Position numbers and translations under genes: made by a program. Positions 15,690 through 16,015 of a stretch of 64,000 nt of DNA are shown here, piece by piece (positions within the stretch are counted from its first letter, which is position 1; every line of letters begins with the position of its first letter). Source of the DNA: a phage; the NCBI GenBank assembly GCA_014435945.1, contig GCA_014435945.1_4088.1; one strand, given 5' to 3'. Under the pieces are notes generated by a model. The model saw only the letters and a program-made list of their open reading frames with translations, was not told the DNA's origin and searched no databases.

Positions 15690-16015
15690 TATGGTGTAAG
15701 TTACGTCGATGTAATCCAGAACAAGATCTCTGGTACTCTAGGAAGTGGTGAATGTTAACCTAGACGGGTTTGATAATTGGACGATAGGCAATTATTACTT
15801 GACTAGCAGGTTTAAACTAGAGGTGACAGTCCTTCACCAAACTGGAAAACCGGATGGACTTTTATTTAAAAGGGTAAGGCGTGGAAATATGTTTACAGAA
15901 GTTGCTTTTAGTAGCCTGTACGCCCCACGTCAAGGTAGCCGAAAGGCAAGTTAAAACGGGTGGTTATAAAGCTGAATTAACAGCGGCGTTTAAAAGCGTC
16001 ACCATCCATTTTTTT
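15690..16015 (+). ncRNA. candidate structured non-coding RNA
   Basis: About 320 bp, GC-richer than surroundings, several hairpins including GCC-GAAA-GGC, ends in T-run, sits between a promoter and the tRNA cluster; the only ORF (15745..15954) needs a GTG start. Confidence 0.3.

What the first reader, a model, noticed from the sequence alone, without database searches (positions are those of the whole stretch)
15690..16015. Candidate structured ncRNA between a promoter and the tRNA cluster
A stretch of about 320 bp with visibly higher GC than its surroundings follows a strong promoter (15640..15668) and ends in a T-run near 16005-16012. It contains local hairpins (GTGACAGTCCTTCAC; GCC-GAAA-GGC tetraloop). 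The only ORF (15745..15954) needs a GTG start and encodes a low-complexity basic peptide.
Basis: inference. Interest (0 to 1): 0.55.

Follow-up and report, generated by a model that had tools for sequence, protein, structure and literature searches.

The report
Two phage small RNA genes
The flagged stretch of this giant E. coli phage holds two neighbouring genes for folded non-coding RNAs, one of which belongs to an apparently undescribed RNA family found among the tRNA genes of several unrelated phage groups; what it does is unknown.

Summary
A near-consensus sigma-70 promoter (15641-15669) is followed by about 345 nt of GC-enriched, ORF-poor sequence that ends in a T7 run (16009-16015).

It is non-coding RNA, but two separable modules, not one:
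- Module A (15671-~15862, about 190 nt) has six covarying helices and an H-type pseudoknot. 23 of 43 pairs show compensatory changes.
- Module A homologues sit between tRNA genes, co-oriented with them. They occur in T4-like Proteus, Shigella, Morganella and Aeromonas phages, T5-like Proteus phages, a Stephanstirmvirinae Klebsiella phage, and RaK2/121Q-type jumbo phages.
- Module B (15873-16015, about 140 nt) has a 5' hairpin domain, a GAAA hairpin and a Y-shaped terminator. It is confined to the jumbo phages.
- Close relatives carry A only, B only or neither.
- The 69-aa ORF spans both modules and is not conserved.

Neither module matches any Rfam 15 family, tRNA/tmRNA, T4 RNAC/RNAD, any E. 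coli genome or 185,579 bacterial species genomes.

The closest known analogues are the T4 tRNA-cluster stable RNAs, whose function is also unknown.

My best inference is a horizontally mobile, accessory trans-acting RNA that binds a conserved host factor. Function is not shown.

The parts
15641..15669 (+). Sigma-70-type promoter: TTGACT, 17-nt spacer with extended -10 TG, TATAAT. The predicted start site is around 15676-15677.
   Evidence: Matches 11 of 12 consensus positions. The identical 29-mer recurs only at 16400-16428, before the tRNA cluster. The same promoter drives module B directly in JNE01.
15671..15862 (+). Module A: a roughly 190-nt structured RNA. Its 5' leader AAUUCCACA directly follows a tRNA CCA end in homologues. 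Its tail AAACUGGAAAACCGGAUGGAC is conserved.
   Evidence: nhmmer gives E = 3e-55 and no paralogue elsewhere in the window. Homologues occur in five or more phage lineages. On a hand-fitted alignment, 43 pairs are 97% canonical and 23 show compensatory change.
15680..15710 (+). Helix H1: AUC-A-GACGUA / UACGUC-GAU, with the conserved loop UAUGGUGUAAGU.
   Evidence: Pairs are replaced wholesale in KP13-16 (GAUUGUGUA/UACAUAAUC), in L024 copy 2 (CUAAAAUA/UAUUUUAG) and in Aeromonas phages (CGGG/CCCG).
15716..15733 (+). Helix H2: a hairpin of variable length, CCAG...CUGG.
   Evidence: Both length and sequence vary while pairing is kept: CCG/CGG, CCCACA/UGUGGG, UCAG/CUGA.
15737..15764 (+). Helix H3: UCUAGG / CCUAGA, with a 16-nt loop starting AAGUGG.
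   Evidence: All six pairs show compensatory change: CCUAUA/UAUAGG, CCUGAA/UUCAGG, CUGAAG/CUUCAG.
15765..15771 (+). Junction CGGGUUU, nearly invariant as CGGG(A/U)U.
   Evidence: Invariant columns in alignments A6 and A8.
15772..15796 (+). Helix H4: GAUAAUUG / CAAUUAUU, with loop GACGAUAGG in which GACGAUA is conserved.
   Evidence: Five of eight pairs change on both sides in the unfitted MAFFT alignment.
15797..15820 (+). H-type pseudoknot. Stem X is ACUUG/CAGGU (15797-15801 with 15807-15811). Its loop CUAG (15803-15806) pairs with the downstream CUAG (15817-15820).
   Evidence: Both stems are 100% paired, and each has two pairs with double-sided change. In L024 copy 1 the competing nested helix breaks while the pseudoknot stem is kept.
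15822..15838 (+). Helix H6: GGUGA / UCACC, with a 7-nt loop ending in the conserved CCU.
Evidence: The fourth pair varies G-C / A-U / U-A across lineages.
15863..15872 (+). AU-rich linker UUAUUUAAAA between the modules. It is a probable endonucleolytic processing site.
   Evidence: In K64-1 the linker is replaced by a promoter-like TTGAAC-17-TATAAT, and in EJP2 by a tRNA-Ser. Processing itself is inferred.
15873..16015 (+). Module B: a roughly 140-nt RNA. It has a 5' hairpin domain (15878-15931), a GAAA-tetraloop hairpin (15938-15947) and a Y-shaped 3' domain (15958-16007), followed by U7 (16009-16015).
   Evidence: The fold has z = -3.25. The 3' domain is 96% paired with 5 of 17 compensatory pairs, using the K64-1 and L023 paralogues. 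Module B stands alone after the promoter in JNE01.
15745..15954 (+). 69-aa GTG ORF, judged spurious.
   Evidence: It spans both modules. It is absent or cut to 20-25 aa in K64-1, PM2 and avDM6. Homologues carry 1-, 2- and 5-nt indels inside it. It has no Pfam match.

Best explanation
The region contains two adjacent small non-coding RNA genes. In this phage (an Asteriusvirus of the 121Q/PBECO4 type) they are transcribed together. Transcription starts at the sigma-70 promoter at 15641-15669 and stops at a branched intrinsic terminator plus U7 at 15958-16015.

Module A is a roughly 190-nt RNA of six helices and an H-type pseudoknot. Its loop and junction nucleotides are strongly conserved. It belongs to a phage-restricted RNA family that moves horizontally between unrelated virulent phages of Enterobacterales and Aeromonas. 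In those phages it normally lies inside tRNA gene arrays. There its ends would be made by the enzymes that mature the flanking tRNAs: an RNase E-type cut after the upstream CCA, and RNase P at the downstream tRNA.

Module B is a second, independent RNA of about 140 nt that carries its own terminator.

Shown: both modules are non-coding, their structure is conserved, they are modular, and they are dispensable accessories.

Inferred: both accumulate as stable trans-acting RNAs, like T4 RNAC and RNAD. Module A acts through its folded shape on a factor conserved among these hosts, rather than by base-pairing or in cis. That would make it a decoy or inhibitor tied to tRNA/translation-directed host defence or to host takeover. 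I put that functional step at roughly 0.3.
For: Non-coding and structured:
- On a hand-fitted alignment of 14 sequences, 43 pairs are 97.3% canonical and 23 are compensatory. Slid controls give 1-6 compensatory pairs.
- On an unfitted MAFFT alignment of the 3' core, 97.1% of cells are paired and 10 of 22 pairs change on both sides. 0 of 500 shuffles reach this, and slid controls give 0-3.
- Conserved G-U pairs (G-U at H4, U-G in stem X) fix the strand.
- Module B's 3' domain is 96% paired with five compensatory pairs, and its fold has z = -3.25.
- The ORF is not conserved.

Two modules:
- EJP2 has A only, followed directly by a tRNA-Ser. JNE01 has B only, directly after the promoter. G17 has neither, and keeps a 37-nt remnant.
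- K64-1 has the order B2-A-(promoter-like sequence)-B.

Placement in tRNA arrays:
- Module A lies between tRNA genes and is co-oriented with them in PM2, SdyM006, Proteus phage 1, KP13-16, Aeromonas 65/avDM6/AP1/P19 and in metagenome contigs. CC2 has the homologue, but that record carries no annotation.
- It starts 0-1 nt after the encoded CCA.

Horizontal mobility and accessory status:
- Module A is 92% identical between this jumbo coliphage and T4-like Proteus phages, but only 81% identical to the related RaK2 group.
- Homing endonucleases lie next to it.
- The promoter cassette is repeated.

Not a known family and not from the host:
- Rfam scans at gathering and at E-value thresholds give nothing, on three divergent homologues.
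- ARAGORN finds no tRNA or tmRNA there.
- There is no E. coli genome match.
- There is no true hit in 185,579 bacterial species genomes.

Context for an anti-defence role: phage tRNA regions are documented counter-defence loci (PMC11555353, PMC10264068, PMC13096335).
Against: - No expression data exist for any phage that carries these RNAs. No transcriptome was found. Transcription, processing and stability are therefore inferred from promoters, terminators and context.
- Function is entirely inferred. No partner protein or target was identified. I found no loop-loop or loop-target covariation.
- Module A's single-sequence fold is not unusually stable (z = -1.1).
- The full 14-sequence covariation count uses an alignment I fitted to the structure.
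- The sequences fall into only about five lineages, so the number of independent events is smaller than the cell counts suggest.
- The family is rare. Only isolate genomes turned up in IMG/VR, plus four metagenome contigs.
Confidence: 0.75

Rival explanations
1. Module A is a self-processing or processing-assisting RNA. It would be a ribozyme or a nuclease guide that helps to release the neighbouring tRNAs from the polycistronic precursor, for example by cutting at its own 5' end just after the upstream CCA.
For: The RNA begins 0-1 nt after the encoded CCA wherever a tRNA lies upstream. It has a pseudoknotted core with invariant junction nucleotides. Such cores are typical of small ribozymes that cut at their 5' end, which is my own knowledge of the HDV-like, glmS and hatchet classes.
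Against: It also occurs right after a promoter with no upstream tRNA, in this window, in L022 and in EJP2. It matches no ribozyme family in Rfam, even at E <= 10. Host RNase E, RNase P and exonucleases already explain tRNA maturation. Phages that lack it (G17) keep the same tRNAs.
Confidence: 0.07
2. The modules are base-pairing regulatory sRNAs. They would use conserved loops as seeds against host or phage mRNAs.
For: They are promoter-driven and terminator-ended small transcripts. Several loops are conserved and single-stranded (GACGAUA, AUGGUGUAA, AAGUGG).
Against: Module A has six helices, a pseudoknot and invariant junctions. That is far more elaborate than typical seed-plus-terminator sRNAs. 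It is conserved between phages of Aeromonas and Enterobacterales that share few mRNAs. Inside tRNA arrays it has no terminator hairpin of its own.
Confidence: 0.13
3. The region is a cis-acting leader, that is an attenuator or riboswitch, for the downstream gene 16032-16403.
For: It has the same orientation. The terminator-like structure and T7 end 16 nt before the ORF's start codon.
Against: Module A is flanked by tRNAs on both sides in most lineages. G17 keeps the downstream ORF without either module. K64-1 has a different gene after module B. EJP2 has a tRNA after module A.
Confidence: 0.04
4. The region encodes the 69-aa basic peptide (15745-15954).
For: An open frame with a GTG start exists. 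Some GenBank records annotate hypothetical proteins over the region.
Against: The frame spans two modules that occur separately. Homologues have only 20-25-aa fragments. Indels of 1, 2 and 5 nt fall inside it. Substitutions follow base-pairing, not codon position. It has no Pfam match.
Confidence: 0.02
5. The region is a degenerate tRNA-derived relic, or a DNA-level mobile-element or homing-site sequence with no RNA function.
For: It lies in tRNA islands next to homing endonucleases. KP13-16 has a T-arm-like remnant beside it. It varies in presence and absence among close relatives.
Against: There is strand-specific covariation with conserved G-U pairs. Many unpaired positions are invariant across lineages that are about 65-75% identical overall. 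ARAGORN and the Rfam tRNA model give no hit. A relic would not keep 97% pairing.
Confidence: 0.03

Closest known systems
Bacteriophage T4 RNAC (species 1) and RNAD (species 2), the small stable RNAs of the T4 tRNA gene region
   Same: Both are small non-coding RNAs (119 and 139 nt in T4). Both are encoded in tandem within a phage tRNA cluster, co-oriented with the tRNAs and next to a homing endonuclease gene. Their biological role is still unknown (PMC3014915, PMC9697503). Modules A and B occupy the same genomic niche and also come as a tandem pair.
   Different: There is no sequence similarity (blastn). The module A covariance model gives no hit in the T4 tRNA region. T4 RNAC ends in a tRNA-like T-arm (GGTTCGAATCC), which module A lacks. 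Module A is longer, is pseudoknotted, and is spread across several phage families rather than only T-even phages.
PeSL (promoter-early stem-loop) cassettes of T4-type phages
   Same: A conserved promoter cassette is repeated at module boundaries (15641 and 16400; it is doubled in 121Q). Module content differs between close relatives. This fits cassette-mediated modular shuffling (PMC2839356, PMC4122927).
   Different: PeSLs are composite promoter-terminator motifs that flank protein-coding ORFans in T4-like phages. Here the shuffled cargo is RNA genes in a jumbo phage, and recombination at the cassette was not demonstrated.
Large ornate phage-associated RNAs found near tRNA genes (GOLLD, ROOL)
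   Same: They are structured non-coding RNAs of unknown function, carried by phages and often adjacent to tRNA genes (PMC12286853; the tRNA association is my own knowledge).
   Different: Those RNAs are roughly 580-800 nt (my own knowledge) and occur mainly in Firmicutes-type hosts. Neither Rfam model matches here, at gathering or at E-value thresholds.
Phage tRNAs used as counter-defence (T5 tRNA-Tyr against Retron-Eco7, and anticodon-loop variants)
   Same: They share the same genomic islands, have accessory character and are exchanged horizontally (PMC11555353, PMC10264068, PMC13096335).
   Different: Modules A and B are not tRNAs. An anti-defence role for them is only a hypothesis.

Membership tests
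T4 RNAC/RNAD stable RNAs | Encoded inside a phage tRNA gene cluster, on the same strand as the tRNAs | tested here: met
   Module A homologues lie between tRNA genes in PM2, SdyM006, Proteus phage 1, KP13-16, Aeromonas phages and contigs L024 and L025. In the window itself the RNA lies about 420 nt upstream of the cluster, behind the same promoter sequence.
T4 RNAC/RNAD stable RNAs | Sequence or structure homology to T4 rnaC or rnaD | tested here: not met
   blastn with word size 7 finds only chance 7-10-mers. Covariance model R1 has no hit in the T4 region L004.
T4 RNAC/RNAD stable RNAs | Accumulates as a stable processed RNA during infection | not testable with these tools
   No RNA-seq or Northern data were found for any carrier phage.
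tRNA / tmRNA | Cloverleaf or tRNA-like domain detectable by ARAGORN or by the Rfam tRNA and tmRNA models | tested here: not met
   ARAGORN finds seven tRNAs in the window, none within 15670-16016. Rfam has no hit there.
Any curated Rfam 15 family (RNase P, 6S, group I/II introns, small ribozymes, riboswitches, GOLLD/ROOL and others) | Covariance-model score at or near the family threshold | tested here: not met
   There is no match at gathering thresholds. The best sub-threshold hits are 12-14 bits at E = 5-8, and they fall on different unrelated families in the three divergent homologues.
Intrinsic (Rho-independent) terminator, 3' end of module B | GC-containing stem directly followed by a U-run | tested here: met
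   The outer stem GGGUGGU/ACCAUCC (15958-15964 with 16001-16007) is followed by A plus U7. It is kept through compensatory change in paralogue B2. The simple scanner missed it because the stem encloses two hairpins. Termination activity was not tested.
Sigma-70 promoter | -35 and -10 hexamers with 16-18-nt spacing | tested here: met
   TTGACT-17-TATAAT with an extended -10 TG matches 11 of 12 positions. The region as a whole is not enriched in promoter-like sites (28 found, 29.4 expected). The argument therefore rests on the exact repeat before the tRNAs and on its reuse in JNE01.
Protein-coding gene | Reading frame conserved among homologues | tested here: not met
   Frame-breaking indels are seen.

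The most novel reading that the evidence does not exclude
Module A is the founding example of a new class of phage-borne functional RNA. It would be a compact pseudoknotted RNA carried in tRNA arrays and swapped between unrelated virulent phages of Gammaproteobacteria. It would act through its fold, either as an RNA decoy or inhibitor of a conserved host immune or tRNA/translation factor, or as a catalytic RNA. That would give the first functional handle on the 50-year-old puzzle of why phage tRNA clusters carry extra stable RNAs.
Probability: 0.3. Interest if true: 0.85.

Novelty: new variant of a known kind. Interest (0 to 1): 0.62.

Why it matters
Small stable RNAs in phage tRNA clusters have been known since T4 RNAC and RNAD, yet none has a function.

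Module A is a new, unrelated family in the same niche, and it has three properties that make it experimentally tractable:
- It has a well-defined, covariation-supported fold with a pseudoknot and an invariant core.
- Closely related coliphages exist that naturally carry A+B, A only, B only or neither.
- Nearly the same sequence occurs in model-sized T4-like and T5-like phages.

Its horizontal spread and accessory status, in loci now recognised as counter-defence islands, make it a good candidate for an RNA-based host-manipulation or anti-defence factor.

It also shows that genome annotations of these phages wrongly place "hypothetical proteins" over RNA genes.

Tried and rejected
Hypotheses tested and rejected:
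- Known RNA family. Rfam scans at gathering thresholds on the window and eight loci, and at E-value thresholds on three divergent homologues, gave nothing consistent.
- tRNA or tmRNA. ARAGORN was negative. A local resemblance of GACGGGAUUG to the tmRNA 5' region was judged to be chance.
- Homology to T4 rnaC/rnaD. Rejected by blastn and by the covariance model.
- Mimic of a host RNA. There is no E. coli genome match. Two pattern scans of 185,579 species genomes gave zero hits, then 13 chance hits. The only one the model scored (L028) lies inside a 1399-aa ORF.
- Paralogues elsewhere in the window. nhmmer found none.
- A nested helix (UAG with CUG flanking H6) as an alternative to the pseudoknot stem. 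It is broken in L024 copy 1 while the pseudoknot stem is kept.

Searches and structural ideas that led nowhere:
- More distant relatives. Three IMG/VR pattern scans returned only isolate genomes plus one chance hit in a GC-rich coding region. BLAST from KP13-16, Aeromonas 65 and L024 copy 2 added Aeromonas Ceceduovirus phages but no new lineage. A weak model hit in phage CC2 (L021:5091) lies inside a 620-aa ORF.
- A closing helix between the 5' leader and the 3' tail. It is perfect in L024 copy 2 (AAUUCCA/UGGAAUU) but is not kept in the KP13-16 or Aeromonas forms, so it is left open.
- Loop-loop and loop-tail tertiary pairings (loop 1, loop 3 or loop 6 with the tail). I found no supporting covariation by inspection.
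- CsrA-sponge reading (GGA motifs in loops). The GGA motifs are not conserved in Aeromonas homologues.
- Anticodon-stem-loop mimicry by H6. The loop positions that would be the anticodon vary.
- Literature. I found no description of this RNA and no transcriptome for a carrier phage.

Full report
**Source of the window and check of the observation**

The window comes from an Asteriusvirus, a 121Q/PBECO4-type jumbo coliphage. The region 15600-16100 is 98-99% identical to about 26 such genomes.

- A near-consensus sigma-70 promoter (TTGACT-17-TATAAT with an extended -10 TG) sits at 15641-15669.
- GC content rises to 0.38-0.46 over 15650-15999, against 0.26-0.34 on either side.
- Seven T residues lie at 16009-16015.
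- The only sizeable ORF is the 69-aa GTG frame at 15745-15954.
- The 29-nt promoter sequence occurs exactly twice in the window. The second copy is at 16400-16428, immediately before tRNA-Ser/Met/Asn.

**Not a known RNA**

- An Rfam 15 scan at gathering thresholds finds only the seven tRNAs in the window.
- A permissive scan of 15600-16100 gives two chance-level hits at E = 5-8.
- ARAGORN finds no tRNA or tmRNA there.
- Permissive scans of two divergent homologues give different, unrelated chance hits.
- A gathering-threshold scan of eight related loci finds only tRNAs, one tRNA-Sec-model hit (L008:144-233) and one unrelated group I intron.

**Two modules, not one RNA**

BLAST against phage genomes splits the region.
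- Window 15670-15858 (module A) is 92% identical to T4-like Proteus and Morganella phages (Bragavirus).
- Module A is 86% identical to a Shigella Bragavirus and to T5-like Proteus phages (Novosibvirus).
- It is 81% identical to the RaK2/K64-1 jumbo phages.
- It is about 72% identical to Klebsiella phage KP13-16 (Stephanstirmvirinae).
- It is about 80% identical over its core to T4-like Aeromonas phages.
- Window 15873-16015 (module B) is found only in Asteriusvirus and Alcyoneusvirus. Its 5' hairpin alone also occurs in Kuravirus phages.

Natural variants prove that the two parts are separable.
- EJP2 has A only, followed three bases later by tRNA-Ser.
- JNE01 has B only, placed directly after the same promoter.
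- G17, and by the same BLAST signature phAPEC6, Sharanji and others, keeps only the first 37 nt.
- K64-1 has a diverged paralogue B2 directly after a tRNA. Module A follows, then a promoter-like TTGAAC-17-TATAAT, then B.

In this window A and B share one promoter and one terminator, so the primary transcript should be about 340 nt. That is an inference.

**Genomic niche of module A**

Outside the jumbo phages, module A sits between two tRNA genes on the same strand.

| Phage or contig | Flanking tRNAs |
|---|---|
| PM2, SdyM006 | Gly / Asp |
| Proteus phage 1 | Leu / Ser |
| KP13-16 | Leu / Ser |
| Aeromonas 65, avDM6, AP1, P19 | Pro / Thr |

- Phage CC2 also carries the homologue, but its record has no annotation.
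- Four metagenome contigs add further contexts. One (L024) has two tandem copies separated by tRNA-Arg.
- Wherever a tRNA lies upstream, the RNA's conserved leader (AAUUCCACA or a variant) begins 0-1 nt after the encoded CCA.

This is the same niche as T4 RNAC and RNAD. Those lie in tandem after tRNA-Arg, beside segB, and their roles remain unknown (PMC3014915, PMC9697503).

**Structure of module A**

I segmented 14 non-identical sequences from about five lineages into helices by hand.
- The 43 proposed pairs are 97.3% canonical, and 23 of them show compensatory double changes. When the 3' partners are slid by 1-3 columns, only 1-6 pairs do.
- That alignment was fitted to the structure. I therefore repeated the test on a plain MAFFT alignment of the better-conserved 3' core (A8).
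- There, 97.1% of cells are paired and 10 of 22 pairs change on both sides. The covariation score is 0.42 against 0.17 in shuffles (0 of 500 reach it). Slid controls give 0-3 pairs.

The fold has these elements:
- H1, a long hairpin with a conserved loop.
- H2, a hairpin of variable length.
- H3.
- The invariant junction CGGG(A/U)U.
- H4, with the loop GACGAUA.
- An H-type pseudoknot. Stem X is ACUUG/CAGGU, and its loop CUAG pairs with a downstream CUAG.
- A conserved tail ending GAUGG.

Further points:
- RNAalifold instead proposed a nested helix, UAG/CUG, flanking H6. That helix is broken in L024 copy 1 while the pseudoknot stem is kept.
- Conserved G-U and U-G pairs fix the transcribed strand.
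- L024 copy 2 replaces H1, H2 and H3 almost entirely while keeping them paired.
- Single-sequence folding does not recover this structure and is not unusually stable (z = -1.1). That is common for RNAs built from short helices and a pseudoknot.

**Structure of module B**

- The minimum-free-energy fold is unusually stable (z = -3.25; 0 of 200 shuffles fold as well).
- It has a 5' hairpin domain (15878-15931), the GCC-GAAA-GGC hairpin (15938-15947) and a three-way 3' domain (15958-16007).
- The outer stem of the 3' domain abuts the U7 run, making a branched intrinsic terminator.
- With the K64-1 and L023 paralogues, the 3' domain is 96% paired and 5 of 17 pairs are compensatory. This rests on six sequences from three lineages and is moderate evidence.

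**The ORF**

- The 69-aa frame begins in the H3 loop of module A and ends in module B, so it cannot be conserved where the modules occur apart.
- K64-1, PM2 and avDM6 have only unrelated fragments of 20-25 aa.
- Homologues carry 1-, 2- and 5-nt indels inside it.
- It has no Pfam match.

**Distribution**

- A covariance model of the 3' core (R1) finds one copy per related locus and two copies in L024.
- It finds nothing in the T4 tRNA region.
- nhmmer finds no paralogue of A or B elsewhere in the window.
- No E. coli genome has a match.
- Pattern scans of one genome for each of 185,579 bacterial and archaeal species gave no true hit.
- IMG/VR returned only isolate genomes.

The family is therefore restricted, as far as these collections show, to virulent phages of Enterobacterales and Aeromonas, and it is uncommon.

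**Mobility**

- Module A in this coliphage is closer to the copy in T4-like Proteus phages (92%) than to the copy in the related RaK2 group (81%). That indicates recent horizontal transfer.
- Homing endonuclease genes lie nearby. An HNH_3+NUMOD4 gene is at 14170-14694 in the window, and a segD-like gene lies immediately upstream in SdyM006.
- T4 SegB is known to drive preferential inheritance of the tRNA region (PMC2330249).
- The promoter cassette is repeated at module boundaries and is doubled in 121Q. This recalls the PeSL cassettes that mediate modular shuffling in T4-type phages (PMC2839356, PMC4122927).

That these two mechanisms explain the mosaic of A, B, both or neither is an inference.

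**How it most likely works**

Shown:
- There are two non-coding, structurally constrained RNA genes.
- They are accessory and horizontally mobile.

Inferred from context:
- Transcription starts at the early-type promoter, or runs through as part of tRNA precursors.
- Ends are made by the nucleases that mature the neighbouring tRNAs.
- The products accumulate as stable RNAs.

Inferred function:
- Module A's elaborate fold, and its invariant unpaired nucleotides, are kept between phages that share little else and infect different orders of Gammaproteobacteria.
- This points to recognition of a conserved host component through shape. It argues against mRNA base-pairing or cis regulation.
- The RNA is dispensable, and it lives in tRNA islands now known to carry counter-defence functions (PMC11555353, PMC10264068, PMC13096335). 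This makes a decoy or inhibitor role against tRNA/translation-directed immunity the reading I would test first.
- I give that functional step about 0.3. The alternatives are a base-pairing sRNA at 0.13, a processing ribozyme at 0.07, and a cis leader, a peptide or a relic at 0.02-0.04 each.

**Novelty**

The kind of element, extra stable RNAs in phage tRNA clusters, has been known since T4. These two families are unrelated to the T4 RNAs, absent from Rfam 15, and not described in the literature I could search.

Module A is unusual in three ways:
- It is shared across at least five phage lineages.
- It has a covariation-supported pseudoknotted architecture.
- Natural presence/absence variants exist among near-identical coliphages, which makes function directly testable.

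Noticed in passing
window 16439-16530: A tRNA-Ser carries the anticodon ACT. A34 is unusual in bacteria and phages outside tRNA-Arg(ACG). The same tRNA is annotated in 121Q and G17.
   Followed up: no
window 16538-16627: The tRNA called Met(CAT) is 90 nt long. It has a long variable arm (type II, Leu/Ser/Tyr-like shape), the anticodon loop CUCAUAA and discriminator A. 121Q annotates only 75 nt of it. Its amino-acid identity is unclear.
   Followed up: partly
window 17805-18038: There are three tandem tRNA-Thr(TGT) genes, two of them identical.
   Followed up: no
window 13035-13205, 14733-14897, 14894-15058, 15055-15219: Four paralogous small ORFs (three of 54 aa, one of 56 aa) all start with MTHEEWM. 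Three of them are in tandem just upstream of the RNA locus. The one tested has no Pfam match.
   Followed up: no
window 14170-14694: An HNH_3 + NUMOD4 homing endonuclease gene lies immediately after tRNA-Arg(TCT) at 14065-14138.
   Followed up: partly
window 15641-15669 and 16400-16428; L001 1543-1640: An identical 29-nt promoter cassette is repeated in the window. 121Q has two copies about 70 nt apart upstream of the RNA, with a 9-codon mini-ORF between them. This may be a PeSL-like recombination cassette.
   Followed up: partly
window 17208-17804: This roughly 600-nt stretch has no long ORF but has a perfect 12/12 promoter match at 17486-17513. The 121Q homologue of the preceding ORF is longer (133 aa against 71 aa), so part of the stretch may be a decayed gene.
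   Followed up: no
L022 555-790 (- strand): Another promoter-driven small RNA candidate lies downstream of module A. It is unrelated to B and has a long closing stem, GGUGAGUAACAUUG/CAAUGUUACUCACC. A further promoter and tRNA-Arg follow it.
   Followed up: no
L007 1620-1680 (Klebsiella phage KP13-16): Between module A and tRNA-Ser there is a T-arm-like GAGTTCGAATCTC followed by ...ACCA. It looks like a tRNA 3'-half remnant or a tRNA-like tail.
   Followed up: no
L009 1130-1790 (Kuravirus vB-EcoP-XT18): A roughly 650-nt unannotated, GC-rich region with no Rfam match contains a hairpin homologous to module B's 5' hairpin.
   Followed up: partly
L023 2460-2692: A group I intron (Rfam RF00028, 104 bits) lies in a RaK2-like metagenome contig, about 1.8 kb downstream of the RNA locus.
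   Followed up: no
L016 537-624 and the equivalent in L008, L013-L015: In Aeromonas phages a conserved extension of about 85 nt, with hairpin GGUUGAU...AUCAACC, fills the gap between module A and tRNA-Thr. It may be yet another small RNA module.
   Followed up: no
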